The notes under the pieces: model-generated
What the model was told of the DNA's origin: nothing
What the model saw: the letters and a program-made list of their open reading frames with translations, nothing else
Database searches by the model: none
Assembly (NCBI GenBank): GCA_036574205.1
Contig: JAINCQ010000020.1
Coordinates: forward strand, 19,688-83,687
Origin: Elusimicrobiota bacterium
GTDB lineage: Bacteria; Elusimicrobiota; Elusimicrobia; Elusimicrobiales; UBA9959
Length of the DNA: 64,000 nucleotides
Reading direction: 5' to 3'
Part shown: piece by piece, positions 17,573 through 28,910 of the stretch
Position numbering within the stretch: the stretch's first letter is position 1
Layout of the letters: the number at the start of each line of letters is the position of its first letter
Made by a program: the position numbers and the translations under genes

Positions 17573-19051
17573 ATGAAAAAAATACTCATTATAAGATTTT
17601 CTTCCCTTGGCGATATAATACTTACTTTTCCTGTTCTTAAAAACATAAAGCTTAATGACAAAAACATCAAAATTTTTTATCTTACGAAAAAAAACTTTTC
17701 AGCTGTTTTACGATCAAATCCAAATGTGGATAAGGTTTTGGAGTTTAATGGTTTTTTAAATACAATTTCGCTTTTAAGAAAAGAAAAGTTTGATATTTTA
17801 ATAGACCTTCACTCAAATCTTAGAAGTTTTATTTTTACCAGATTTATTATTTCTAAAATAAAAATAAGATATAATAAAGATTCCATATACAGACGACTTT
17901 TCGTTAACTTCAGGTATATATCTCCAAGATTAAAAAAACATGTGGTGGAAAAATATCTTGAGACTATTTCAAAATTAGGGTTTAAAATTTATTCAAAAGA
18001 TTTAGAGATAGAAAATGTAAATCTTTCACAACAATTAGAAAAAAAACCAAAAAAAATTTTAATTATACAAACTGCGTTTTTAGGCGATTTATTTTTAACA
18101 CTTCCAATGATAAAGGAAATAAAATCTAAAATTAAAGATTCTTATGTCGCTATCTTAATAAGAGGCGAAAATGAAAAAGCTGTTGAAAAGGTAGAAGGTA
18201 TTGATGAAATAATTTCTGATTGGAAAACAGAGAGAAGTTTTTTTTCTGAGTTTAAAAGACTATTAACTTTAATAAAATCCAAAAACTTTGAGATAGCGAT
18301 AATTCCTCATAGATCATTAAGATCAGCTATGCTTGCTTTTCTTGCAGGAATTAAAATAAGAATAGGATTTGATATTAAACCAGCTTCTTTATTTTATACA
18401 CATGTTTTACCATTTGAGTGGCTTATACATGATTCCAAAAGAAACAGTATGCTTCTTTCTCCATTAATTGGCACAAATCTTATAGAATTTCCAGAGATAA
18501 AAGAAGATTTGGGTGAAAAATTTTCAATTCTTTCAAAGATTTCTCCTCTTATAGTTTTAAACACCTCTTCTGTCTGGCCAACAAAAAGATGGCCAGATTA
18601 TAAGTTCATAGAATTATCTTTGAAATTATATGAAAAATATAAGGCTCCTGTGGTGTTGATAGGAAGCAAAAAAGAGGAAAGTTATATAAAAAACATAGAA
18701 AATGCTCTTAGGGAAAAATGTATAAATATAACGGGCAAAACAACACTTGGGGAATTGATATCCATCATAAAAAAAGCTGATGTTTTAATAACAAACGACT
18801 CAGGTCCAATGCATATAGCATCTGCTACTTCAACCCCGGTGATAGCCATATTTGGACCAACGACCAGGGAACTTGGCTTTTATCCTTGGGGGAAACATGC
18901 AAGAGTTATTGAGAAAAAAATTAAATGCAGACCATGCAGACTCCATGGTTCAAATTTATGTCCGAGAGGACATTTTTTATGTATGAAAACAATAAAAGTA
19001 AATGATGTTTTAAACGAGACACAAAAAATTCTAAAATATAAATATGGATAA
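17573..19051 (+). CDS. Glycosyltransferase family 9 (LPS heptosyltransferase-like) with a duplicated N-terminal half-domain
   Basis: Two GT9 N-terminal signatures (KKILIIRFSSLGDIILTFPVLKNIK at aa 2, and KKILIIQTAFLGDLFLTLPMIKEIK at about aa 160). There is only one C-terminal half (GKTTLGELISIIKKADVLITNDSGPMHIA...IFGPT). Confidence 0.75.
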   Translation: MKKILIIRFSSLGDIILTFPVLKNIKLNDKNIKIFYLTKKNFSAVLRSNPNVDKVLEFNGFLNTISLLRKEKFDILIDLHSNLRSFIFTRFIISKIKIRYNKDSIYRRLFVNFRYISPRLKKHVVEKYLETISKLGFKIYSKDLEIENVNLSQQLEKKPKKILIIQTAFLGDLFLTLPMIKEIKSKIKDSYVAILIRGENEKAVEKVEGIDEIISDWKTERSFFSEFKRLLTLIKSKNFEIAIIPHRSLRSAMLAFLAGIKIRIGFDIKPASLFYTHVLPFEWLIHDSKRNSMLLSPLIGTNLIEFPEIKEDLGEKFSILSKISPLIVLNTSSVWPTKRWPDYKFIELSLKLYEKYKAPVVLIGSKKEESYIKNIENALREKCINITGKTTLGELISIIKKADVLITNDSGPMHIASATSTPVIAIFGPTTRELGFYPWGKHARVIEKKIKCRPCRLHGSNLCPRGHFLCMKTIKVNDVLNETQKILKYKYG

Positions 19052-19850
19052 ATTATTATGGGCTTTGCCATTAATTGGAGCTTATTCTTTTAGATGGAGC
19101 TGGTGGTTTAAGAATAAAAAAGGATTAAATGTTCTTGTTTATCATAAAATAGGTTATCCACCAAAAGATAGTAAATTAAAGGAATTATGGGTTACCCCTG
19201 AAAGGTTTGAAAAACATATTTTGTGGCTTAAGAAAAATGGATATAAAGCCATTGTTTTTTCCGAGTTACTAGATTACTATAAAAATAATAAACCTGTAGA
19301 TAATATTGTGCTTATAACTTTTGATGATGGATATGAAAATAATTATAGATATGCTTATCCAATACTAAAAAAATATGACTCAAAAGGGAATATCTTTGTT
19401 GTTTATAACACAATAGGCAATGTGAATATATGGCATAATCCTGAAACTGAGGCGTGGCAAAATATGGCGACAAAGGAAATGCTTATAGAAATGAGCGAAA
19501 GTGGGGTAATTGAATTTGGAGCTCATACAATGAACCATCCACGCCTTGAAAAAATTCCTCTGGAAGATGCGGCTTGGGAAATAAGGGAATCAAAAAAACA
19601 ACTTGAAAATTTATTAGGCAAAGAAATAATTTCTTTTGCTTATCCTTATGGAAATGGAGCTTATAACCAAAAGATAAGAAAAATAGTTCTAAATTCTGGA
19701 TATATCTTTGATTTTAGTTTTAAACAGGGCAAAACCTCCTGGCCCTGGGAAAGAGAAACCAACCCTATAGATAGGCTTTTTATAGAATATGACGACAGTT
19801 GTTTTGATCTTATGCTTCACATCAAAAAAGGAATTGATAGGGTCTTTTGA
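19044..19850 (+). CDS. Polysaccharide deacetylase (NodB homology domain)
   Basis: ITFDDGY and HTMNHP motifs. It overlaps the GT9 stop by 8 nt. Confidence 0.75.
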   Translation: MDKLLWALPLIGAYSFRWSWWFKNKKGLNVLVYHKIGYPPKDSKLKELWVTPERFEKHILWLKKNGYKAIVFSELLDYYKNNKPVDNIVLITFDDGYENNYRYAYPILKKYDSKGNIFVVYNTIGNVNIWHNPETEAWQNMATKEMLIEMSESGVIEFGAHTMNHPRLEKIPLEDAAWEIRESKKQLENLLGKEIISFAYPYGNGAYNQKIRKIVLNSGYIFDFSFKQGKTSWPWERETNPIDRLFIEYDDSCFDLMLHIKKGIDRVF

Positions 19851-20926
19851 TGGATATCGAAAAAATTAGGAATGAAATAAGAAAGAAGTTCTGGGGTGCT
19901 TTATTGCTTAAATTTTTAAGCTTCATATATTATTTTCTTTTTATTACAAAGAAAAAAGGACATGATATTGGATTATTGAAAGTCAATAAGTATTCAAAAC
20001 CAGTAATATGTGTTGGGAATATTTCATCAGGGGGAACAGGAAAAACAACTTTTGTTATATCCATTTCAAAAAAACTTTCTAATATAGGAATTAGACATAC
20101 AATAGTCTTGAGAGGATATAAAAGCGAATCTAAATATAATGATATAATTGATTTAAACGACACTAACTTTGATAGACTTATGTTAGATCCTGCTATAAGT
20201 GATGAAAGCAAATTAATAGCGCTTTCTTTAAAAGGGCTTGGGGTTCCGGTCATTTCATCCAAAAACAGAAAAAAGTCGATAGAATTTGCAATTCATAATT
20301 ACAATCCACAGCTAATTATAATGGACGATGGTTTCCAGAATTTTTCAATCAAAAAAGATTTAAGTATAGTTATAATAAATCTAAATATGATTGAAGATTT
20401 TTTGCTTCCTTTTGGAAATCTAAGGGAAAGTTATAACGGAATTAAAAGAGCAGACTTTATTATTTTAAATCATTGCGAGCTTTTTGAAAAAGACTTTATA
20501 AAAAAATCTGTGGAAAAGATTTCAAAGTATTCAAATAAAAAAATTATAGAAGCATTTTACAAGCCTTGGGGATTTCTGGATTTAATAAAAAACGAAAAAA
20601 TAATCCTTTCAAAATTCAAATGGAAAGAAGTTGCTATATTCTCTGGAATAGGTGATAATAGTCAGTTTAAAAAGTTGCTTGAAAAATATGGTTTTATTAT
20701 ATCAAAATCCTGGCAGTTTTCTGATCACCATAAATATTCTATTCAGGAATTAGAATCAATTAATAAAATAAGAGAATCTTTGCCGTTAATTACTACATTA
20801 AAAGATGCAGTTAAGTTTTATTCTCGTGCAAAAGAAATATTCAGAGAAAAGATCTATGCTCTGGATGTAGATATTGTAATTGATGACACCACTGTTATAT
20901 CAAAAATACAAGAAATATCAAAATGA
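19847..20926 (+). CDS. lpxK: Tetraacyldisaccharide 4'-kinase
   Basis: P-loop GNISSGGTGKT after an N-terminal membrane helix, DDGFQ motif, 359 aa. Confidence 0.8.
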   Translation: MMDIEKIRNEIRKKFWGALLLKFLSFIYYFLFITKKKGHDIGLLKVNKYSKPVICVGNISSGGTGKTTFVISISKKLSNIGIRHTIVLRGYKSESKYNDIIDLNDTNFDRLMLDPAISDESKLIALSLKGLGVPVISSKNRKKSIEFAIHNYNPQLIIMDDGFQNFSIKKDLSIVIINLNMIEDFLLPFGNLRESYNGIKRADFIILNHCELFEKDFIKKSVEKISKYSNKKIIEAFYKPWGFLDLIKNEKIILSKFKWKEVAIFSGIGDNSQFKKLLEKYGFIISKSWQFSDHHKYSIQELESINKIRESLPLITTLKDAVKFYSRAKEIFREKIYALDVDIVIDDTTVISKIQEISK

Positions 20927-21486
20927 AAATAATATACCTGCCTTCAAAAATTTTAAAACCTTCCATATTCCTGGATAGAGATGGTGTAATAAACAAAGAT
21001 GTTGAAGGAAAATATATAACTTCTATAAAAGATGTTAAGATATACAAATCTGCGATAGAGGGTTTGAAAAAAATCAACCTTGATAAATATCATCTAATAA
21101 TAATTACAAACCAATCAGCTATAAATAGGGGGCTTATAGATTTAAAGCAGTTTAAAAAGATAAGCGATTATATAATTGAAGAACTTAACAAGCACAATAT
21201 TAAAATAAATGCTGTTTATTTTTGCCCGCACAGGCCAGAGGAAAATTGTAAATGTAGAAAGCCCAAAACTGGACTTATTGAGGAAGCTATTTTGGATTAC
21301 AAGATAGATATTAAGAAATCTTTTTTTGTTGGAGATAAAAAAACAGATATTGATACGGCAAAATCAGCGGGGATAAAATCAATATTTGTTGGGACGGGGC
21401 AGGCAAAAAATCAGAGATTAAAATACAAAAAAATAGAAGCTGATATCACAATAAAAGATTTAAGAGAACTTAAGAAATATGTTTAA
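20923..21486 (+). CDS. gmhB: D-glycero-D-manno-heptose 1,7-bisphosphate phosphatase (HAD-IIIA)
   Basis: FLDRDGVIN nucleophile motif, Zn-site CPHRPEENCKCRKP and GDKKTD. Confidence 0.85.
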   Translation: MKIIYLPSKILKPSIFLDRDGVINKDVEGKYITSIKDVKIYKSAIEGLKKINLDKYHLIIITNQSAINRGLIDLKQFKKISDYIIEELNKHNIKINAVYFCPHRPEENCKCRKPKTGLIEEAILDYKIDIKKSFFVGDKKTDIDTAKSAGIKSIFVGTGQAKNQRLKYKKIEADITIKDLRELKKYV

Positions 21487-22258
21487 AATATTTTTAATAA
21501 TTTCCTCTTTCTTAAATTCCTTTGAAAATCCTTTTGATTTTTATAAAAAAGTTAATACCGATACATGTGATCTTTGCGGAACGACCTATCATTATGAAAT
21601 ATACTGGGGGTTTATAAATGTTGGATCTGCTAAAATAGAAATCGATTCAATCGTTGAAATTTCAACAACAAGTTATGCCTATAAAATAATAGCCACAGCA
21701 CATTCAAATTCTTTCATAGATGGAATTTTTAAAGTGAGGGATACGAATATAGCGTTTCTTGACATCTTGCTTAAAAAATCATATGGATATTACAAAGATA
21801 TAAATGAGGGAAATTATTTTTTAAAAGAATATACTTTTTTTGACTATAATCAAAAAAAGTTTTACGGAGAAAAATCTATAAACAAAAAAGAACCCAAAAA
21901 GCATTCTGGTGATATTTTTGAATCTGTATACGATGTTCTTTCATCTTTGTTTCTTTATATAGGCACAAAAGACGAGATAAAAAAGGAAAGAAGCATAAAC
22001 ATAATAACAACAAAGCCATGGACACTTAAGGTTATAAATCACGGTATAGAAATTGTAAAAACGGAAATGGGAAAATTTAATACTTACAAACTTGAGCCAA
22101 AGGTTGGAGAAGAAGGAATTTTTATGTCAAAAAAAGGAAGAAGCCTTTATGTTTATATATCAAAAAATGAAAGATTTCCAGTTCTACTTAAAGCCGAAGT
22201 TTTTATAGGAAGCGTTTCTGCAAAACTTGTCAAAATTGATAAAAAAGAAAAAAGATGA
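21479..22258 (+). CDS. DUF3108-like exported protein
   Basis: N-terminal hydrophobic segment and a beta-rich body with a YEIYWGFINVGSAKIEI pattern reminiscent of DUF3108. Weak, memory-based assignment. Confidence 0.4.
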   Translation: MFKIFLIISSFLNSFENPFDFYKKVNTDTCDLCGTTYHYEIYWGFINVGSAKIEIDSIVEISTTSYAYKIIATAHSNSFIDGIFKVRDTNIAFLDILLKKSYGYYKDINEGNYFLKEYTFFDYNQKKFYGEKSINKKEPKKHSGDIFESVYDVLSSLFLYIGTKDEIKKERSINIITTKPWTLKVINHGIEIVKTEMGKFNTYKLEPKVGEEGIFMSKKGRSLYVYISKNERFPVLLKAEVFIGSVSAKLVKIDKKEKR

Positions 22259-22292: not shown

Positions 22293-22817
22293 ATGAAACT
22301 AAAGTTAGTTTTGCTGTTGAATATAGTGTTTTTTGTTCAAATCCCCTGTTATGCTTTTTTAATCTCCCCTTCATATAAAGTAACAAACATATCTACATAT
22401 AATACTCCAAACTCAGAATATAAAATTTCCTACAGTTACAGGCTTTTTGGCAATATAATTGGAACAGGATATGAAGGATTTAGCGGAGCAACTATAAATC
22501 TTTATCCTGAAGTCTTAGGTCTTTCCAGAGGTCCGGAGGTTACGGTTGAAAAAGCTTATGCTTTTCCAAATCCATGCAACCTGAGATATGGTTGCAATGG
22601 AGTAGCTTTTACAAAATTAACTCTTATTTGTGAAATACGCATATTTACTATCTCAGGGGAGCATGTTGCAACAATAAATAAAAATTCCAACAATGAAAGT
22701 ATAAGCTGGGATCTGAAAGATAAAAATGGCAAAATAGTTTCAAGTGGACTTTATATATTCTATATAAAAGATAATGGAGGAAATACAAGAAAAGGAAAAT
22801 TGGTAATTATAAGATGA
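22293..22817 (+). CDS. Small secreted protein with C-terminal FlgD-Ig / T9SS-C-terminal-sorting-like beta-sandwich domain
   Basis: Signal peptide MKLKLVLLLNIVFFVQIPCYAF. The C-terminus AYAFPNP...IRIFTISGEHVATI...WDLKDKNGKIVSSGLYIFYIK...KGKLVIIR matches the FlgD_ig/Por_Secre_tail pattern. I prefer ATG 22293 over the track start 22227. Confidence 0.55.
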   Translation: MKLKLVLLLNIVFFVQIPCYAFLISPSYKVTNISTYNTPNSEYKISYSYRLFGNIIGTGYEGFSGATINLYPEVLGLSRGPEVTVEKAYAFPNPCNLRYGCNGVAFTKLTLICEIRIFTISGEHVATINKNSNNESISWDLKDKNGKIVSSGLYIFYIKDNGGNTRKGKLVIIR

Positions 22818-25800
22818 AATCTTTAAATAATATTTGTGGAGGACATATGCTTTTTAGATTAATTTTATTTTTATTCTTTTTTATTCCAGCAATAAAATCA
22901 TTTTCAGGAGAAATCAAATCCGGTTCGGTTCCAAACTCAATAGTTTATCAGGGTAGGGTTGAAAAAGATAATGCGCCTTTAAATGGGCTTATGCATATAA
23001 TATTTAGAATATACGAATACCCAAGTGGAGGAACACCAGTATGGACAAGTAGTGAATATTTAACTGAAGCAAGAGCAGGTATATTTTCAGTTACAATAAG
23101 CTCAATACCAATTTCTATTTTTTCTAATGGAAAAACTCTTTATTTAGAAGTGGAGATAGAAGGCGAAAAGCTTTCACCAAGAGAGCCAATAAATAGTGTT
23201 ATATACTCAATGGTTGCTAAAAAACTTGAAGATGGGGCATTTGTTCATTTTAGCTCTTTTACTGTTGGAACAAACCCAAATGCAATAGGCCCTTCAGGTC
23301 AAAGAGCAATAATACTGGATGGGGGAATATATACAGACAGGATATGCTTCACGGATAATAGTTGTATATCTACAGTCGGAGGATCATCGGCAGTTAATGA
23401 GGTATTCTCATCGACAACCGTTTATTTACGATCTGATAGCGACAACAATGGAAGTGGGGATATAATTTTTCAAACAGCTACAACACCTAAAGCTATAATA
23501 ACAAACTCAGGTAATATGGGAATAGGGACAACTACACCTTCTGAAAAACTTGTAGTAAATGGAAGCGCTACAATAACAAATAACCTCATAATTGGCGAAA
23601 ATCTCTATTTATCTGGAAATTTTAACAATGGAATAATAAGAGGAATAAATAATGAACAAATAAGTATTGGACAAAGTAATGATAGAATAGATTTTATTAT
23701 AAATGGTTCAACTCAAATAACTGTAAATAATGATAGACTTGGTATAGGAACGCCAAACCCATCTGAAAAACTTGATGTTAACGGCAATATAAAGGCGCAA
23801 GACATAACCGCAAATAACCTCATAGTTTCAAACGAAATAAAAAACAATACTGGAAATCTTATAATTCAAAAAACTGTTTTATCAAATGTTGGTATAGGAA
23901 CTGATACCCCAAAAGAAAAACTTCATGTTGCTGGAACGATTAAAGCAGACCTTGGAATATCAGCAGCCACAGCTACCTTCACTTCAGATGTTAATATTTT
24001 AGGCAATTTAAATGTAAGCAATTTTGGAAGGACTATTACTCTTTCATCTACCACAATTTATGGAACTCTTGATGTAAAAGGTGGATTTACTTTAAATAAT
24101 GATAATATAGCAGCTTTAGCATCAACTCAAACCTTTACTGCTCAAAATACTTTTTTAAATCAACTTACAATTTCAAGCCATGTTTTAATAAATAATTTTT
24201 CAAGGCTTGCAGTTGGTTCCCAGAGTTTTATATATCCCATGTCAACCTATCTTCAGATAGGGGACTCAAATCTAACCTCTTCAACTGCAACTCTATATAT
24301 GTCAGCAGGAGCAAATTCAAACGGCAATATAATTTTTTATAGGGGATCAAATAAAGTGGCTTCTATTAAAACATCCGGAAATAATTTAAATATTACATAT
24401 GGAAACTCTGATATACAAAAAACTTATATAGATGAGTCACATTTTAAAATTTATAATTCTACTGTTATAATTTCTCCATCAACTGATGATTTAAACCCTG
24501 CAATTTATGTAAGTGGAAATTCAAACGTAGGTATAGGAACTACTAACGCAAATCACAAACTTACTGTTGCCGGAAATATCAAATTAACTGGAGTTGGAAC
24601 TGGAATAATTTTTAATGATGGTACAATACTTACATCAAGCGGTTCTCTATCTGTTGGAGCGATATCAAATACAGGTGATGCGGTCATAGTTGCTGACTCA
24701 GACAATAATGGTTATGGTTCTATAGTGATGAAAGTAAAAGATAACACAGCAATGGCAATAGATAATACGGCAAAAATAGGAATAGGGACTCTTTCTCCTT
24801 CCGATAAACTTCAAGTTATAGGTGGAGATGTTGTTATAGGAAACACATTAAATCCCTATTCTCAGGACGGCAAAGAAGACCTTATAGTCGCCGGGAATAT
24901 AGAAGTTGATGGGATGTTAAAACAAAGATCTTCAATACCAGTTGAGTTTACCTCATTATATGTATCCAATGATGTATTTCTTTCAACTGCTTCAGGATAT
25001 AGAACAGGGATAGGGACCATTTCTCCGTCTGAAAAATTGGATGTGAATGGAAATATAAGAGCAACTGGAAACATAAAAATAGAAGGGTTAAGCGCAAGTA
25101 GAATAGTTGCAACTGATGGATTTAAGATTCTTTCAAGTTCTATAACAGCTGATAACCTTAGAAGTTCGGTTTCAGGCACAACGGGGACTGGCAATCTCGT
25201 TTTTAATACTGTCCCTTCCTTTACAACAGGAATAACTGTAAATGGATATGGAAACTTTACAGGAATCACTGCCTCAAGCGGAACATTCACTGCCACAGGT
25301 CAATATAGTATTCAAAGTTCATCTGGAATTTTAATTTCAGCCGGAACAGTCAATCTAAACAATACTGCAAGAATAAAAAATTCACCTGAGCCACTTGAAA
25401 ATCAGGATGTTGCGACAAAATATTATGTAGATCAAATTGGTGGGGGAGCAAGCGATGTAGGAGCATGGGTCAAAACTGGAAATAATCTTGGAACATATAA
25501 TAAATTAGGGAGCACAAACCCAAAAGATGTTGTTTTTATAAGAAACAACTCGACTCAATTTACTATGACAGCTTCTGGTGTAAATTTTTCTGTACCAATT
25601 TTATCAGGATATTCTATTACTGCCTCAAGTGGAACATTTACAGCCACTGGTCAATATAGTATTCAAACTTCATCTGGGATTTTAATTTCAGCCGGGACAG
25701 TCAATCTAAACAATACTACAAGAATAAAAAATTCACCTGATCCACTGGAAAATCAGGATGTTGCGACAAAATATTATGTAGATCAAATTGGCGGGGGAGC

Positions 25801-27031
25801 AAGCGATGTAGGAGCATGGGTCAAAACTGGAAATTCTCTTGGAATATATAACAAATTAGGAAGTACAAACTCAAAAGATGTTATTTTTATAAGGGACGAC
25901 ATAACTCAATTTAGTATGACAGCTTCTGGTGTAAATTTTTCTGTACCAATTTTATCAGGATATTCTATTACTGCCTCAAGTGGAACATTTAGCTCTGGAA
26001 TACAGGTAAATAGTGGAAAAATAGTAACTCCTGCTTTTCAAATGACTACTGGCGCCTCAGACGGATACTTTTTGGTATCAGATGGAGCTGGTAATGCTAT
26101 ATGGAAAGACGCAACCAGTGCAGGGTTGGGTGATAAAGTAGTTGGAAATGAAGTACTTGATTCTTATGATAGCTCTTTAACAAGGACAGGTAGTGGAACA
26201 TCTCTATCTCCATATAAATTAAAACTTAATCTTTCAAATCCAAATACATGGACCGCCACTCAAACTTTTAACAAGGGAATTACTGCTTCAACAATTACTG
26301 TCTCAGGATTTTCAACTGCTGGTTTTGTCAAAAATGATGCAAGTGGAAATTTAAGCGGTGGAAATTCAATTTCCGCCACAGATATCCCAAGAAGTAGTCT
26401 TGTTAATGGTACAGGCATAAGTATGACTGGAACTTTAACAAATAGACTTGTAGGTTCTGAAGGTAATGTTACTATAAATGTAGCAGCAAATGTTCCCACT
26501 TCTGTTACTAATGATACAAATGTAACTGGTTCTATAACAAGTAACGTTTTAACTTTGGGGTGGGCAGGACAACTTGGATTAAGTAGAGGTGGAACAGGTG
26601 CTGATTTAAGCGGTGCTGCAGACGGTCCTATTAAAAAATCTGGATCGTCTTTAGGAGTTTATGCTATAAGTCTTTCAACAGATGTGGTTGGAACCCTCCC
26701 AGCTTTAAAAGGCGGAACTGGAATAAGCGGAGCAGGTGGAACTGCAAATAGAATTTTATTAACTACTAATGGCTCAAGTTGGTCGGCAGGACAAATTAAT
26801 TTAAATTCAGATCAAGTCACCAATACTCTACCGGTTTCTAAAGGCGGAACTGGAAGCACATCTTATACAACAAACCGGCCAATAATTTATAATGGCACAA
26901 ATTTAGTTTCATTCAACGGTTTTAATGGAAGTTTTACCGTTGCAAAATCAACTAATCCAGCTGCCGGTTGTATGCAATTAAATTACCAATATGGCATATT
27001 AACTTCAACCGATAGTGTTTCATGCCCATAA
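22814..27031 (+). CDS. Giant secreted repeat protein with tail-fibre-like motifs (putative cell-surface fibre/adhesin)
   Basis: 1405 aa with a signal-like N-terminus (LFRLILFLFFFIPAIKSFSG). It carries six GIGTxxPxxKLxVxG motifs, two NSP(E/D)PLENQDVATKYYVDQ motifs and three xxGGTGx motifs near the C-terminus. It is Thr/Ser/Gly/Asn-rich, and its start overlaps the previous stop (ATGA). Confidence 0.7.
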   Translation: MKSLNNICGGHMLFRLILFLFFFIPAIKSFSGEIKSGSVPNSIVYQGRVEKDNAPLNGLMHIIFRIYEYPSGGTPVWTSSEYLTEARAGIFSVTISSIPISIFSNGKTLYLEVEIEGEKLSPREPINSVIYSMVAKKLEDGAFVHFSSFTVGTNPNAIGPSGQRAIILDGGIYTDRICFTDNSCISTVGGSSAVNEVFSSTTVYLRSDSDNNGSGDIIFQTATTPKAIITNSGNMGIGTTTPSEKLVVNGSATITNNLIIGENLYLSGNFNNGIIRGINNEQISIGQSNDRIDFIINGSTQITVNNDRLGIGTPNPSEKLDVNGNIKAQDITANNLIVSNEIKNNTGNLIIQKTVLSNVGIGTDTPKEKLHVAGTIKADLGISAATATFTSDVNILGNLNVSNFGRTITLSSTTIYGTLDVKGGFTLNNDNIAALASTQTFTAQNTFLNQLTISSHVLINNFSRLAVGSQSFIYPMSTYLQIGDSNLTSSTATLYMSAGANSNGNIIFYRGSNKVASIKTSGNNLNITYGNSDIQKTYIDESHFKIYNSTVIISPSTDDLNPAIYVSGNSNVGIGTTNANHKLTVAGNIKLTGVGTGIIFNDGTILTSSGSLSVGAISNTGDAVIVADSDNNGYGSIVMKVKDNTAMAIDNTAKIGIGTLSPSDKLQVIGGDVVIGNTLNPYSQDGKEDLIVAGNIEVDGMLKQRSSIPVEFTSLYVSNDVFLSTASGYRTGIGTISPSEKLDVNGNIRATGNIKIEGLSASRIVATDGFKILSSSITADNLRSSVSGTTGTGNLVFNTVPSFTTGITVNGYGNFTGITASSGTFTATGQYSIQSSSGILISAGTVNLNNTARIKNSPEPLENQDVATKYYVDQIGGGASDVGAWVKTGNNLGTYNKLGSTNPKDVVFIRNNSTQFTMTASGVNFSVPILSGYSITASSGTFTATGQYSIQTSSGILISAGTVNLNNTTRIKNSPDPLENQDVATKYYVDQIGGGASDVGAWVKTGNSLGIYNKLGSTNSKDVIFIRDDITQFSMTASGVNFSVPILSGYSITASSGTFSSGIQVNSGKIVTPAFQMTTGASDGYFLVSDGAGNAIWKDATSAGLGDKVVGNEVLDSYDSSLTRTGSGTSLSPYKLKLNLSNPNTWTATQTFNKGITASTITVSGFSTAGFVKNDASGNLSGGNSISATDIPRSSLVNGTGISMTGTLTNRLVGSEGNVTINVAANVPTSVTNDTNVTGSITSNVLTLGWAGQLGLSRGGTGADLSGAADGPIKKSGSSLGVYAISLSTDVVGTLPALKGGTGISGAGGTANRILLTTNGSSWSAGQINLNSDQVTNTLPVSKGGTGSTSYTTNRPIIYNGTNLVSFNGFNGSFTVAKSTNPAAGCMQLNYQYGILTSTDSVSCP
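23519..25051 (+). repeat. Six dispersed intragenic copies of the GIGTxxPxxKLxVxG motif
   Basis: MGIGTTTPSEKLVVNG, LGIGTPNPSEKLDVNG, VGIGTDTPKEKLHVAG, VGIGTTNANHKLTVAG, IGIGTLSPSDKLQVIG and TGIGTISPSEKLDVNG, read from the translation. Confidence 0.8.
25270..25995 (+). repeat. Intragenic tandem duplication, period 351 bp (117 aa), two full copies plus the start of a third
   Basis: TGCCTCAAG recurs at 25270, 25621 and 25972. The copies align without indels, with roughly two dozen substitutions by eye. Confidence 0.9.
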
Positions 27032-27032
27032 A

Positions 27033-28298
27033 TTAAATTTTAAATATTTCCTTAATTATTTTATCTGTTGCGCCTTTAAGAGACAAAAGCGCTTTATTGG
27101 AATTTAAAGACGCAGTAATAAGATATTTTTCTGATAAAAGAACTTCTATTCTTGATTTTAAATCATATTCATCTTTTACAACAAATCCTCCCTTATATTC
27201 TATGAGTCTTTGGGCAGCTTCTTTCTGGTTAAAATAATTTGGTCCAAAAAGAACTGGCTTTGAAAAGATTGATGGCTCAAGAAGGTTATGCCCACCGATT
27301 TTATTAAGAGTTCCTCCAACAAAACATATACAGGATAAAAAATAAAATTTTAATAGAACACCTATTTTATCCACTATCAAAATTTGAGTATCAAATAAAT
27401 TTATCTTTTCCTCATTGCTTTCGCCAATATCAGAAAATTTCAAATATTTTAATCCAATTTTTTTTATCTTTTCTTCAAAGAAACGAGTTTTTTCCACATG
27501 TCTTGGAACAATTATATATTTTATATTTTCCTTATCATAAATAAGGTCATAGCTCTTAAGTATTATATCTAACTCTTCTAAATGAATACTTCCGAAGGTT
27601 ATTAACTTTTTTTTATCAAAACCTATTTTACTTAGCAAAAATTTTATATCGTCTGCATCTGATGTTTTAACATATACATCATATTTTGTGTTACCACTAA
27701 CATATATTTTTTCTTTATCTATAAAATGGGAAAACCTTTTAGCGCTTTCCTCATTTTGAACAAATATCTTCAAAGCTTTCTTAAATGAATATTTTAAAAG
27801 AGGAGATATGATTTTATACAGAGTAAAAGAGTTTTCTGAAATTTTTGCATTTATATAATAAAGTTTTGACCTTTCAGAGCATACTTTAACAAAACTTGGC
27901 CATAACTCAGTCTCAGCTATAAATATAAAATCTGGATTTACCTTTTTTACAAATTTTTTGATAACTGGATAAAAATCAAAAGGTATTATAAAAGCATTTT
28001 CAGTTATCTGTTTTGCTGCCAAAAGTGCTGTTTCTGTAAAAGTAGTTATGACTATGGTATAGTTGGGGAATGAGTTTTTAAAAAATTCTATAATGGACTT
28101 TATCGCATTTATCTCACCTATAGAAGAGCAATGAAAAAGGACCGTTTTATTTTTGAAAGCTTTGATCTCTGGAAAAATTCTTTTAATCCAGTATTTAAAA
28201 GTAAATGATTTTGTTCTTATAACTATAACTAACGGAAATGAGATAATAATAAAAAAAGGAATGAGGGTATTATAAAATAAAAACAAAAGAAAGCCCAT
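27033..28298 (-). CDS. waaA: 3-deoxy-D-manno-octulosonic acid (Kdo) transferase
   Basis: 421 aa with an N-terminal membrane anchor, the FHCSSIGE motif and a GT30-like C-terminal half (VGGTLNKIGGHNLLEP). Confidence 0.85.
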   Translation of the reverse strand: MGFLLFLFYNTLIPFFIIISFPLVIVIRTKSFTFKYWIKRIFPEIKAFKNKTVLFHCSSIGEINAIKSIIEFFKNSFPNYTIVITTFTETALLAAKQITENAFIIPFDFYPVIKKFVKKVNPDFIFIAETELWPSFVKVCSERSKLYYINAKISENSFTLYKIISPLLKYSFKKALKIFVQNEESAKRFSHFIDKEKIYVSGNTKYDVYVKTSDADDIKFLLSKIGFDKKKLITFGSIHLEELDIILKSYDLIYDKENIKYIIVPRHVEKTRFFEEKIKKIGLKYLKFSDIGESNEEKINLFDTQILIVDKIGVLLKFYFLSCICFVGGTLNKIGGHNLLEPSIFSKPVLFGPNYFNQKEAAQRLIEYKGGFVVKDEYDLKSRIEVLLSEKYLITASLNSNKALLSLKGATDKIIKEIFKI

Positions 28299-28910
28299 TT
28301 ATTTTTTCTTCTTTGTAACCCATTTAAGATAAAAAAAACGGGTATATAAAGGTTTAAAAGAATCGTTTTCAAAAAAAACTGAAATTTTATTAGATAAAAG
28401 TCTTTCAGAAAGTTCTTTAAGAGGAAATTCAACTAATTTTTTTCCATCAACATAGAGATAAACGGGGTCTGATACTTCAAAATTTTCTTTTTTTGATTCT
28501 TCAGCTACCATTTCACAAACAGACTTTACTGCCGTGTTAGAATAAACATCCATAATAATTTTTGAAACTGCTAATTCAAAATCTTCAAGTAACGCCATTT
28601 TTTGCTCTATATCAGATCCCATAGTTATTATTACAAATGAATAAATATTACAACCCTTTGTGTCCAAAGAGGAAATTATGTCTTTTCCAAAAAGTTTCTC
28701 CATCTCTATCATTTCTATTGTGTCATAAACAGCTGATGGAGATAAGTATGATACAAAGTTTGAAACATATTCTTTGAAATTTTTTTCATAATTTTCTTTG
28801 CCGCCAAATAATTCAATAGCATCTATCCCTTCTTTCTTTGATTTTCTCTCTATATCATAATAATAAATTGGTATTTTAAAATTTTTTACCTTTCTCATTT
28901 TTTTCAACAA
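28299..28910 (-). CDS. Hypothetical cytoplasmic protein
   Basis: 203 aa with no TM helix or signal and no motif I recognise. It is tightly packed between secF and waaA, with its stop adjacent to the waaA start. Confidence 0.5.
   Translation of the reverse strand: MLKKMRKVKNFKIPIYYYDIERKSKKEGIDAIELFGGKENYEKNFKEYVSNFVSYLSPSAVYDTIEMIEMEKLFGKDIISSLDTKGCNIYSFVIITMGSDIEQKMALLEDFELAVSKIIMDVYSNTAVKSVCEMVAEESKKENFEVSDPVYLYVDGKKLVEFPLKELSERLLSNKISVFFENDSFKPLYTRFFYLKWVTKKKK

What the first reader, a model, noticed from the sequence alone, without database searches (positions are those of the whole stretch)
22293..27031. Tail-fibre-like giant secreted protein and a FlgD-Ig/T9SS-CTD-like partner at the end of the LPS-core operon
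A 1405-aa ORF with a signal-like N-terminus carries six GIGTxxPxxKLxVxG motifs, two NSP(E/D)PLENQDVATKYYVDQ motifs and three GGTG motifs (LSRGGTGADL, LKGGTGISG, VSKGGTGSTS). From memory I associate these motif types with phage tail fibres and other trimeric fibre proteins. The window has no capsid, tail, integrase or lysis gene. Instead the gene is translationally coupled (ATGA overlap at 22814-22817) to a 175-aa secreted protein with a FlgD-Ig/T9SS C-terminal-sorting-like beta-sandwich. Both lie at the distal end of a co-directional, overlapping array: GT9, deacetylase, lpxK, gmhB, DUF3108-like. The fibre stop is 1 nt from the convergent waaA stop. This context suggests a host-encoded surface fibre whose production is tied to outer-membrane/LPS biogenesis. 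It does not look like a prophage remnant.
Basis: partly seen in the sequence, partly recalled or inferred. Interest (0 to 1): 0.6.

Follow-up and report, generated by a model that had tools for sequence, protein, structure and literature searches.

The report
Host-encoded tail-fibre-like surface fibre with anchoring partner
This is a chromosomal gene pair kept across Elusimicrobia that encodes a phage-tail-fibre-like surface fibre of the kind recently described in the predator Bdellovibrio, plus a small partner protein that probably fastens the fibre to the outer membrane.

Summary
The window is an Elusimicrobiota MAG.

**What the fibre is.** The six GIGTxxPxxKLxVxG motifs are the "capping loops" of the MAT (mosaic adhesive trimer) fibres of Bdellovibrio. 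A family profile hits five solved MAT fibres (E down to 7e-18). The AF2 model's best PDB matches are the same fibres.

**It is not a prophage.**
- The pair small + fibre is present in 61 of 63 related Elusimicrobia loci.
- It always lies between the LPS heptosyltransferase gene and waaA.
- It is co-directional with the LPS block only in the window's own clade (3 of 53 loci).

**Start codon.** The likely start is ATG 22847 (strong SD, family-consistent), not the ATGA at 22814.

**New lead.** The partner's C-terminal domain best matches the retained CTDs of PorZ and PorU. In six other loci, fibres with the same N-domain sit next to a PorV/PorQ-family outer-membrane barrel gene, and five of these also have the small partner.

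**Best model.** The partner docks on a PorV/Q-like barrel and tethers the fibre root. The variable C-terminal tip binds a ligand.

The kind is known, the variant is new, and the interest is moderate.

The parts
22293..22817 (+). Small secreted partner gene (174 aa). It has a Sec-type signal peptide (aa 1 to about 21), a conserved N-part of about 60 aa, and a C-terminal PorZ/PorU-CTD-like beta-sandwich (aa 84-174).
   Evidence: TIGR04183 32.9 bits, above cut-off 23; PorZ C-terminus E 2.8e-12; 224 clusters; every named one is Elusimicrobia or unclassified 'bacterium'; PDB: PorZ 5M11 CTD E 9e-6, PorU 6ZA2 E 0.049.
22542..22814 (+). CTD-like domain of the partner (aa 84-174). Conserved motifs: YPNPC..GC..TFTRLTL..IYTISGE..WDL.N..G..VASGLY...KGKLVIIR.
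22847..27031 (+). Fibre gene with the most likely start (1394 aa). The longest ORF starts at 22814 (1405 aa).
   Evidence: NCBI K6357_04450, 1394 aa; SD GGAGGA; start position conserved in relatives.
22847..22906 (+). Signal peptide of the fibre (MLFRLILFLFFFIPAIKSFS), read from the sequence. No predictor was available.
   Evidence: relatives have about 20 residues before the conserved AGEI..GSVPGS.NYQGR.
22919..23239 (+). N-terminal beta-sandwich 'root' domain (aa 36-142 of the 1405-aa ORF). It is the best conserved part of the family.
   Evidence: invariant Y45 Q46 G47 ... E139 G141; pLDDT 80-91, beta strands plus one helix; 10,172 clusters with E<=1e-3, mostly right after a signal peptide; no Pfam model.
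23411..25093 (+). Conserved stalk (aa ~200-760) with six MAT-type capping-loop motifs at nt 23516-23563, 23738-23785, 23888-23935, 24527-24574, 24776-24823 and 25004-25051.
   Evidence: Bd2133 8OND E 6.8e-18, and four more Bd MAT sequences; Supplementary Fig. 18 motif list.
25268..25991 (+). Tandem duplication of a 117-aa module (351 bp x 2.1). Each copy carries NSP(E/D)PLENQDVATKYYVDQ. Matching stretches number 0 to 6 in relatives.
26060..26911 (+). Variable distal region. It has a DGYFLVSDGAGNAIW motif and three GGTG motifs spaced 41-44 aa apart (nt 26588, 26711, 26843).
   Evidence: The structure could not be modelled (pLDDT 46).
26912..27028 (+). Terminal 39-aa element bracketed by Cys1386 and Cys1404 (tip class A). 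It is conserved in roughly half of the 46 closest family members even where the distal half differs.
   Evidence: (last ~40 aa pLDDT 77-81, beta strands).
17573..22258 (+). Flanking LPS block: GT9 heptosyltransferase II, polysaccharide deacetylase, lpxK, gmhB, DUF3108. The genes overlap and are co-directional here.
27033..28298 (-). waaA (Kdo transferase), convergent, with its stop 1 nt from the fibre stop.
   Evidence: convergent waaA downstream in 33 of 34 loci with enough DNA.

Best explanation
This is a vertically inherited two-gene module of Elusimicrobia.

**Gene 2: the fibre.** It encodes a Sec-exported, non-S74 member of the MAT (mosaic adhesive trimer) type of phage-tail-fibre-like surface fibres. 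It has four parts:
- a conserved beta-sandwich root domain right after the signal peptide;
- a conserved stalk of about 600 aa built on the trimeric beta-helix plan, with six capping loops;
- a modular, fast-evolving distal half with a duplicated 117-aa module and GGTG repeats;
- a small Cys-bracketed terminal element.

**Gene 1: the partner.** It encodes a secreted protein of about 150 aa whose C-terminal half resembles the retained C-terminal domains of PorZ and PorU, the two T9SS proteins held at the cell surface by the PorQ and PorV outer-membrane barrels.

**Most likely working.** The partner docks on a PorV/PorQ-family barrel, encoded elsewhere in this genome, and tethers or helps present the fibre's root domain at the outer membrane. 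The variable tip binds an external ligand such as a glycan or another cell's surface.

**Shown:** homology of the stalk to MAT fibres, the partner's CTD similarity, the phylum-wide synteny, and the barrel/partner/fibre gene association in sister lineages.

**Inferred:** trimerisation, surface display, the physical partner-barrel-root contacts, and the ligand-binding role.
For: **1. MAT stalk**
- The family profile A1 hits Bd2133 (8OND, E 6.8e-18) and four further Bdellovibrio MAT fibre sequences.
- The six motifs match the published capping-loop consensus and the listed Bd loops.
- Foldseek of the AF2 model (mean pLDDT 69.8) ranks Bd2133, Bd3182 and Bd1334 first in the PDB, with T4 gp34 and Bd2439 further down.
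- The same model gives 241 hits at E<=1e-3 to phage tail-fibre-like and S74 proteins in BFVD.

**2. Root domain**
- It is a confidently modelled beta-rich domain directly after the signal peptide, as the MAT paper describes for all 21 Bd MATs.
- The same domain heads fibres that end in Peptidase_S74, Peptidase_G2 or Collar/Gp10_C.

**3. Mosaic design**
- All invariant columns lie between aa 45 and 738, while the distal half varies in length and sequence.
- At least three different terminal classes occur among orthologues. One of them (class C) recurs in the separate fibre of L071.

**4. Not a phage**
- 66 loci were found, all but one tiny spurious hit in Elusimicrobia or unclassified MAGs.
- The partner is adjacent in 61/63, GT9 is upstream in 53/54, and waaA is downstream in 33/34.
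- tblastn against 50,697 phage records gives only three weak stalk hits and nothing for the distal half.

**5. Partner and barrel**
- The partner profile's best PDB hits are the CTDs of PorZ (E 9e-6) and PorU.
- The best NCBIfam hit is the PorZ C-terminus.
- A PorV/PorQ-family gene (NF033709, 103-169 bits, cut-off 90) is adjacent to a fibre with the same N-domain in L067, L051, L070, L071, L072 and L073. Five of these also have a homologous small partner.
- Glew et al. 2017 showed that PorQ anchors PorZ and PorV anchors PorU at the cell surface.
Against: - No PorV/PorQ-family ORF lies in the 64-kb window or within 10 kb of the fibre in the other 64 loci. The barrel's presence in this genome is unverified.
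- Homology of the root domain to the Bdellovibrio MAT N-domain could not be tested. The attempt to fetch Bd2133 failed, and afdb50 was unavailable.
- Only a monomer could be modelled, TM-scores to the solved fibres are low, and the distal half did not fold. Trimerisation and the tip fold are therefore inferred.
- Four of ten other N-domain fibre loci have neither partner nor barrel nearby. The trio is not universal.
- How the fibre crosses the outer membrane is unknown, as it is for Bdellovibrio MATs.
Confidence: 0.6

Rival explanations
1. Secretion in trans. The partner is not a static anchor but a detachable secretion signal or chaperone. It binds the fibre in the periplasm, and its CTD carries the complex through a T9SS-like translocon and PorV shuttle. 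The cargo and its C-terminal sorting domain would thus be split into two genes.
For: - The partner passes the T9SS type A sorting-domain model.
- PorV-family barrels, the T9SS cargo shuttle, are adjacent in sister lineages.
- The fibre has a Sec signal but no recognisable outer-membrane export domain of its own.
Against: - The T9SS has been reported only in Bacteroidetes/Chlorobi (statement in PMC5562754).
- No Sov/SprA or PorKLMN genes were seen in any locus examined, though whole genomes were not searched.
- The partner's best matches are the non-cleaved anchoring CTDs of PorZ and PorU rather than cargo CTDs.
- The barrels score higher against PorQ than against PorV.
Confidence: 0.15
2. LPS-tethered fibre. 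The root domain, or the partner, binds the Kdo/heptose inner core of LPS directly. The conserved position inside the lipid A/core gene cluster would then reflect co-production of the fibre and its LPS anchor.
For: - The pair lies between the heptosyltransferase gene and waaA in 53/54 and 33/34 informative loci, within a larger block of kdsA, kdsB, heptose kinase, lpxK and gmhB.
- PorZ, the closest relative of the partner's domain, is annotated as an LPS-delivery protein (PMC8545088 abstract).
Against: - In 50 of 53 relatives the LPS block is transcribed divergently.
- In L051, L067 and L070-L073 the fibre module sits with no LPS-gene hit or annotation. The LPS neighbourhood is therefore not required by the module.
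- The similarity to PorZ covers only its CTD, not its LPS-binding beta-propellers.
- The whole region (secDF-yajC-tgt-queA as well) is a slowly rearranging core block, so adjacency may be historical.
Confidence: 0.15
3. Structural coat. The fibre is an abundant S-layer-like or spacing element of the envelope rather than a ligand-binding adhesin.
For: - The scan returned one locus per genome record, with two records contributing two loci each. This is unlike the 21 paralogues in Bdellovibrio.
- The gene is a core gene, with conserved context among envelope-biogenesis genes.
Against: The distal half is highly variable, with swapped terminal classes and changing repeat number. This is the pattern of receptor-binding fibres rather than of lattice-forming coats. 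No S-layer family was detected.
Confidence: 0.08
4. Remnant or domesticated prophage or tailocin tail-fibre gene.
For: Tail-fibre-type motifs are present, with fold matches to phage fibres. There are weak tblastn hits to three phage records, one annotated 'distal tail fiber protein'.
Against: - The 19 other ORFs annotated one by one between 12,046 and 34,960 include no phage gene, and no phage family is among the 25 shown of the 69 that hit the other 39 ORFs.
- The chromosomal position is the same in more than 50 species-level genomes.
- The signal peptide and root domain are typical of cellular fibres.
- GC content is like the surroundings.
Confidence: 0.02

Closest known systems
Bdellovibrio bacteriovorus MAT (mosaic adhesive trimer) fibres, NS74 subgroup (Bd2133, Bd1334, Bd2439, Bd2734, Bd2740; Caulton et al. 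2024, PMC10769870)
   Same: - A signal peptide followed by a beta-rich domain of about 110-130 aa.
- A long stalk with the same capping-loop motif (profile E 6.8e-18 to Bd2133).
- A conserved N-terminal part and a mosaic, swappable C-terminal tip.
- No S74 chaperone.
- Similar size, about 1,000-1,400 aa.
   Different: - Found in Elusimicrobia, which are not known predators.
- Essentially one orthologue per genome at a fixed chromosomal position, instead of 21 paralogues.
- Always preceded by a small PorZ-CTD-like partner gene, which the MAT paper does not mention.
- The distal modules (117-aa NSP/ATKYYVD module, GGTG repeats, Cys-bracketed end) have no solved counterpart.
- Homology of the root domain to the Bd N-domain was not tested.
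Phage tail fibres and tailspikes with S74 intramolecular chaperone (K1F endosialidase, T5 pb1 L-shaped fibre) and the T4 gp34 long tail fibre
   Same: - The same stalk fold class: 241 BFVD matches at E<=1e-3, and T4 gp34 among the PDB hits.
- Capping-loop motif shared with S74 proteins.
- ATKxYVD-type and GGTG-type motifs (a relative, P0037, carries BppL_N).
   Different: - No phage context and no S74/Peptidase_G2 domain.
- Has a Sec signal peptide and a cellular root domain instead of a baseplate-attachment domain.
- By BLAST, the phage collection has only three weak stalk matches and none to the distal half.
T9SS attachment-complex pairs PorQ-PorZ and PorV-PorU of Porphyromonas gingivalis (Glew et al. 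2017, PMC5562754)
   Same: - The partner's C-terminal 90 aa are most similar to the CTDs of PorZ (PDB 5M11) and PorU (6ZA2), which are retained and hold these proteins on PorQ and PorV.
- In six sister loci a PorV/PorQ-family barrel gene is adjacent to the fibre gene. In five of them the partner gene is there too.
   Different: - The partner is only about 150 aa and has no beta-propeller or sortase domains.
- The organisms are outside the Bacteroidota.
- No Sov/PorKLMN genes were seen.
- The barrel is not adjacent in the window's own family.
- No partner-barrel interaction has been shown.
Trimeric autotransporter adhesins (YadA/BadA type)
   Same: Long, repetitive, probably trimeric surface fibres of Gram-negative bacteria with a conserved anchoring end and a variable binding end.
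   Different: - Opposite polarity: the anchor here is N-terminal.
- No C-terminal beta-barrel translocator domain.
- No family hit.
- This is an analogy only.

Membership tests
MAT (mosaic adhesive trimer) fibre superfamily | Capping-loop motif V-G-G/N-pi-x-x-P-x-x-x-L repeated along a beta-helical stalk | tested here: met
   There are six copies. The profile hits five Bd MAT PDB sequences, with E from 6.8e-18 to 1e-5, on exactly these motifs. They match the loops listed in Supplementary Fig. 18.
MAT (mosaic adhesive trimer) fibre superfamily | Conserved beta-rich domain of about 130 aa immediately after the signal peptide | tested here: inconclusive
   A domain of the right place, size and secondary structure is present (aa 36-142, pLDDT 80-91). 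It also heads S74-, G2- and Collar-tipped fibres. Sequence or fold homology to the Bdellovibrio N-domain could not be tested: Bd2133 was not retrieved and afdb50 was unavailable.
MAT (mosaic adhesive trimer) fibre superfamily | Intertwined homotrimer | not testable with these tools
   Only monomer prediction was available. The monomer model's best PDB matches are the trimeric Bd fibres, but with low TM-scores.
MAT (mosaic adhesive trimer) fibre superfamily | Conserved proximal part with a diversified, exchangeable C-terminal tip | tested here: met
   All invariant columns lie between aa 45 and 738. There are at least three terminal classes among orthologues, and one class (C) recurs in the separate fibre of L071.
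MAT (mosaic adhesive trimer) fibre superfamily | C-terminal Peptidase_S74 chaperone/protease (S74 subgroup only; 8 of 21 Bd MATs lack it) | tested here: not met
   No PF13884 hit at E<=1 on any segment. The protein would therefore belong to the NS74 subgroup.
MAT (mosaic adhesive trimer) fibre superfamily | Display on the cell surface | not testable with these tools
   The only support comes from the sequence: a Sec-type signal peptide and two Cys pairs (C178/C184, C1386/C1404) in the mature chain.
T9SS type A C-terminal sorting domain (partner protein) | Match to the curated CTD models | tested here: inconclusive
   NCBIfam TIGR04183 gives 32.9 bits, above the cut-off of 23. Pfam PF18962 gives 19.5 bits, below the cut-off of 27. 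The best PDB matches are the PorZ and PorU CTDs.
T9SS type A C-terminal sorting domain (partner protein) | CTD sits at the end of a cargo protein and the genome encodes a T9SS (Sov/SprA, PorK/L/M/N, PorU, PorV) | not tested
   The partner is almost nothing but the CTD-like domain (about 150 aa mature). Whole genomes could not be searched. PorV/PorQ-family genes exist next to related modules in other lineages, but none lies in the window.
Prophage or tailocin tail fibre | Located among phage structural, integration or lysis genes, with patchy distribution | tested here: not met
   The neighbours are LPS, Sec and other housekeeping genes. The position is fixed in more than 50 species-level genomes.

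The most novel reading that the evidence does not exclude
The small PorZ-CTD-like protein and a PorV/PorQ-family barrel form a dedicated outer-membrane socket for the root domain of MAT-type fibres. That socket would be the "surface element" that Caulton et al. 2024 said still awaits identification. It would work in bacteria that have no type IX secretion system, which would mean the T9SS attachment-complex parts have an older or independent role as a general fibre-anchoring device.
Probability: 0.3. Interest if true: 0.75.

Novelty: new variant of a known kind. Interest (0 to 1): 0.55.

Why it matters
MAT fibres were described in 2024 as the prey-recognition equipment of one predator, and their attachment to the cell was left unexplained.

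- Here the same kind of fibre appears as a single, core, syntenic gene across the Elusimicrobia genomes the scan reached. Such fibres are therefore not tied to predation.
- The fibre gene travels with a small PorZ-like partner and, in sister lineages, with a PorV/PorQ-type barrel. This gives a concrete and testable proposal for how these fibres are held on the outer membrane.
- PorV/PorQ-family and CTD-like proteins are shown here working outside the Bacteroidota.
- The root domain has more than 10,000 clusters at 50% identity and no Pfam model, so it is a widespread, unannotated marker for this class of surface fibres.

Tried and rejected
- **Bd2133 retrieval failed.** I tried to fetch full-length Bd2133 by searching with its 141-aa PDB fragment. 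The root domain could therefore not be compared with the Bdellovibrio N-domain.
- **Distal half did not fold.** AF2 on aa 746-1405 gave mean pLDDT 46, unusable for fold search.
- **Few family hits on the fibre.** Pfam and NCBIfam gave nothing significant on any segment. PHROGs gave two unknown-function families, both on a capping loop.
- **Phage collection.** tblastn of the distal half found no match. The proximal half gave three weak stalk matches.
- **Promoters and terminators.** The scan found sites at chance level (56 found, 57 expected), so no transcription unit could be defined.
- **Literature.** Searches for Elusimicrobia plus T9SS, tail fibre or surface proteins found nothing relevant. 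The CASP16 paper concerned another Bdellovibrio protein.
- **Rejected: prophage remnant.** Ruled out by synteny.
- **Rejected: ordinary T9SS cargo.** The fibre has no CTD of its own.
- **Rejected: protein heptosylation by the neighbouring GT9.** That enzyme scores as LPS heptosyltransferase II (158 bits, above cut-off) and only 21 bits against the TibC/Aah model.


Full report
**Observation**

The window carries an ORF at 22814..27031 (+, 1405 aa). Immediately upstream is an ORF whose first ATG is at 22293 (174 aa).
- six GIGTxxPxxKLxVxG motifs at aa 235, 309, 359, 572, 655 and 731;
- two NSP(E/D)PLENQDVATKYYVDQ motifs at aa 856 and 973;
- three GGTG motifs at aa 1259, 1300 and 1344.

The capping-type motif occurs in no other six-frame ORF of the window. 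The two NSP motifs lie in a recent tandem duplication of 351 bp (25268-25991, 93% identical; 106 of 117 residues identical). The fibre stop and the convergent waaA stop are one base apart.

Upstream are GT9 heptosyltransferase II, a polysaccharide deacetylase, LpxK, GmhB and a DUF3108 protein. Downstream on the other strand are WaaA, a conserved unknown ORF and SecF, followed by SecD, YajC, Tgt and QueA.

The 19 other ORFs annotated one by one between 12,046 and 34,960 are housekeeping genes, plus that one conserved ORF with no family hit. For the remaining 39 ORFs only the 25 best-represented of 69 Pfam families were shown, and those are also housekeeping.

One correction concerns the start codon. 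The ATGA at 22814 exists, but ATG 22847 is the better start.
- GGAGGA lies 4 nt upstream of it.
- It is 33 residues before the invariant YQGR motif, as in relatives.
- It is the start NCBI uses, giving 1394 aa.

The genes are therefore close (about 29 nt apart) but probably not overlapping.

**Whose genome, and is it a prophage?**

The protein is identical to a hypothetical protein of an Elusimicrobiota MAG. Forty-seven protein clusters match with E below 1e-80; 45 are 37-78% covered relatives and every one that a source names is Elusimicrobia or "bacterium". A scan of one genome per GTDB species gave 66 loci, all but one tiny spurious hit in Elusimicrobia or unclassified MAGs. I ran tblastn of the window's proteins against these loci.
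- The small gene lies directly upstream on the same strand in 61 of 63 loci that have upstream DNA.
- GT9 is upstream in 53 of 54 loci.
- A convergent waaA is downstream in 33 of 34 loci.

The wider block (kdsA, pyrG, kdsB, a sugar kinase, the LPS genes, secDF-yajC-tgt) is also conserved. This is a vertically inherited core locus, not a prophage.

The LPS block is co-directional with the pair only in the window and its three closest relatives. In 50 loci it is inverted, so that GT9 and the small gene diverge. The link to LPS genes is therefore a conserved neighbourhood, not a shared operon.

**What the large protein is**

Pfam and NCBIfam give nothing. A profile of 43 family members searched against PDB sequences hits the Bdellovibrio fibre Bd2133 (8OND, E 6.8e-18). 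It also hits four further "cell wall surface anchor family" sequences (8OML, 8OJN/8ONB/8ONC, 8ON4, 8OL4/8ONF), and weakly hits myelin regulatory factor.

These are the MAT (mosaic adhesive trimer) fibres of Caulton et al. 2024. The alignments fall on the GIGT motifs, which match the paper's "capping loop" consensus and the individual loops in its Supplementary Fig. 18, for example NVGIGATSPSAKLQ.

An AF2 model of residues 1-762 (mean pLDDT 69.8) has a confident beta-sandwich at aa 40-130. Its best PDB matches are Bd2133, Bd3182 and Bd1334, with T4 gp34 and Bd2439 further down the list. Against predicted viral structures it has 241 matches at E<=1e-3, led by cyanophage tail-fibre-like and S74-domain proteins.

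The paper defines MATs by four features:
- a signal peptide;
- a trimeric fibre;
- a variable tip that either is or is not an S74 chaperone.

This protein has the first two by position and predicted structure. It has the capping loops, it has no S74 domain, and it has the mosaic design. All invariant columns lie between aa 45 and 738, while the distal half varies in length and content. The extreme C-termini of orthologues fall into at least three unrelated classes. It is therefore best described as a non-S74 MAT-type fibre.

Two features remain untested. Trimerisation could not be modelled because no multimer tool was available. Direct homology of the root domain to the Bdellovibrio N-domain also could not be checked, because Bd2133 could not be retrieved and afdb50 was unavailable.

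**The root domain is widespread**

A single-sequence search with aa 36-142 against 1.84 billion cluster representatives found 10,172 clusters at E<=1e-3. Most hits lie right after a signal peptide. Many of the proteins also carry capping motifs. Among 55 such proteins, a few end in Peptidase_S74, Peptidase_G2 (another autoproteolytic chaperone) or Collar/Gp10_C, and most have no Pfam domain. The domain has no Pfam model.

**The partner and a third component**

The small protein is 174-180 aa in about 60 loci. It has a signal peptide, a conserved N-part of about 60 aa, and a C-terminal domain with strongly conserved motifs. Every cluster of its family that a source names is Elusimicrobia or "bacterium" (224 clusters).

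It passes the NCBIfam T9SS type A sorting-domain model. Its best NCBIfam hit is the C-terminus of PorZ. Its best PDB hits are the CTDs of PorZ (5M11, E 9e-6) and PorU (6ZA2).

I then looked at the gene neighbourhoods of other fibres that share the root domain. A PorV/PorQ-family outer-membrane barrel gene (NF033709, 103-169 bits, cut-off 90) lies next to the fibre in six loci. The small protein is present in five of them and is homologous over nearly its whole length (E 1e-27 to 1e-77 against my partner profile).

| Locus | Gene order |
|---|---|
| L067 | barrel, partner, fibre |
| L070 | partner, barrel, fibre |
| L072 | partner, barrel, fibre, second fibre |
| L073 | fibre with Peptidase_G2, partner, barrel |
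| L051 | barrel (divergent), then partner and fibre |
| L071 | barrel, fibre |

Four other loci have neither partner nor barrel.

In every one of these barrels the PorQ model scores better than the PorV model. In Porphyromonas gingivalis, PorZ is held on the cell surface by PorQ and PorU by PorV, and truncating the PorZ CTD prevents its surface presentation (PMC5562754).

**Most likely working**

The fibre is exported by Sec and forms a trimeric fibre. From the 0.4 Å per residue of the Bd2133 tip, its length is roughly 50 nm (my rough estimate). Its conserved root is held at the outer membrane by the small partner, whose CTD-like domain docks on a PorV/PorQ-family barrel. The variable distal half binds something outside the cell.

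Shown:
- the fibre homology;
- the partner's similarity to the anchoring CTDs;
- the conserved pairing;
- the recurrent three-gene association in sister lineages.

Inferred:
- all physical contacts;
- surface display;
- the ligand.

The main weakness is that no PorV/Q gene lies in the window or near the pair in the other 64 loci. Its presence in this genome is therefore unknown.

Four rivals remain:
- secretion in trans through a T9SS-like route;
- direct tethering to the LPS core, suggested by the conserved neighbourhood but not required, since the module occurs away from LPS genes in other lineages;
- a structural coat;
- a prophage remnant, which is effectively excluded.

**Comparison and novelty**

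The kind, a cellular tail-fibre-like MAT fibre, is known. The MAT paper itself notes that other bacteria, "predatory and otherwise", may have such proteins.

New here:
- an Elusimicrobia-wide orthologue, essentially one per genome, at a fixed position;
- its obligatory small PorZ-CTD-like partner;
- the association of this fibre class with PorV/PorQ-family barrels.

That association offers a candidate answer to the paper's open question of what holds the N-terminal domain on the cell. I found no paper describing any of this. I rate it a new variant of a known kind, with moderate interest.

Noticed in passing
window 22919-23239 (fibre aa 36-142): The root domain has no Pfam model, yet it matches 10,172 clusters (50% identity level) at E<=1e-3, mostly right after a signal peptide. 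Some proteins carry 3-4 matched stretches of it.
   Followed up: partly
L067 4390-9607; L070 4257-8928; L072 4385-12204; L073 5001-9976; L051 4000-8445; L071 4841-8031: A recurrent gene trio: a PorV/PorQ-family barrel, a small PorZ-CTD-like protein and a fibre with the root domain. The gene order varies. L072 has two fibre genes in tandem.
   Followed up: yes
window 28299-28910 (-): A 203-aa ORF between waaA and secF is conserved at the same place in 43 related loci (24-48% identity) but has no Pfam or NCBIfam match.
   Followed up: no
window 17573-22258 versus L004-L066: The whole LPS block (GT9 to DUF3108) is inverted between the window's clade (co-directional with the fibre pair) and 50 other loci (divergent). 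The fibre pair and waaA keep their orientation.
   Followed up: partly
window 17573-19051 (+): The GT9 heptosyltransferase has an N-terminal extension of about 160 aa with a weak Thioredoxin_9 match (E 6.5e-6). The GT9 domain starts at aa 161.
   Followed up: no
window 25268-25991; relatives P0002-P0012: The 117-aa module with the ATKYYVD motif is duplicated here at 93% DNA identity. In relatives the number of stretches matching it ranges from none to six (P0002), which suggests ongoing length variation of the fibre.
   Followed up: partly
C-termini of P0001-P0046 and of L071/L072 fibres: There are at least three unrelated terminal classes among orthologues: a two-Cys '...C.QL..QYGILTST....CP' class, a four-Cys '..VCWK....LGYC......G.C.TCN' class, and a 'YYC..C.P.K.VVSTGT..G.F' class. 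The third also ends the separate L071 fibre. P0044 ends like the L072 fibres ('PY.QL..C.K').
   Followed up: partly
L015, L046, L059 (small-partner ORF): My automatic ORF calling gave 332-340 aa for the partner in these three loci, against about 177 aa elsewhere. This may be a wrong start choice or a real N-terminal extension. I did not check.
   Followed up: no
L074 3-4370: Two fibre genes ending in Peptidase_S74 lie in tandem on a short metagenomic contig. The second (P0351) carries the root domain.
   Followed up: no
window, one of the 39 ORFs outside 12,046-34,960 (position not determined): A type II/IV secretion ATPase (T2SSE, E 1.3e-114) is encoded somewhere in the window. I did not examine its relation, if any, to fibre export.
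   Followed up: no
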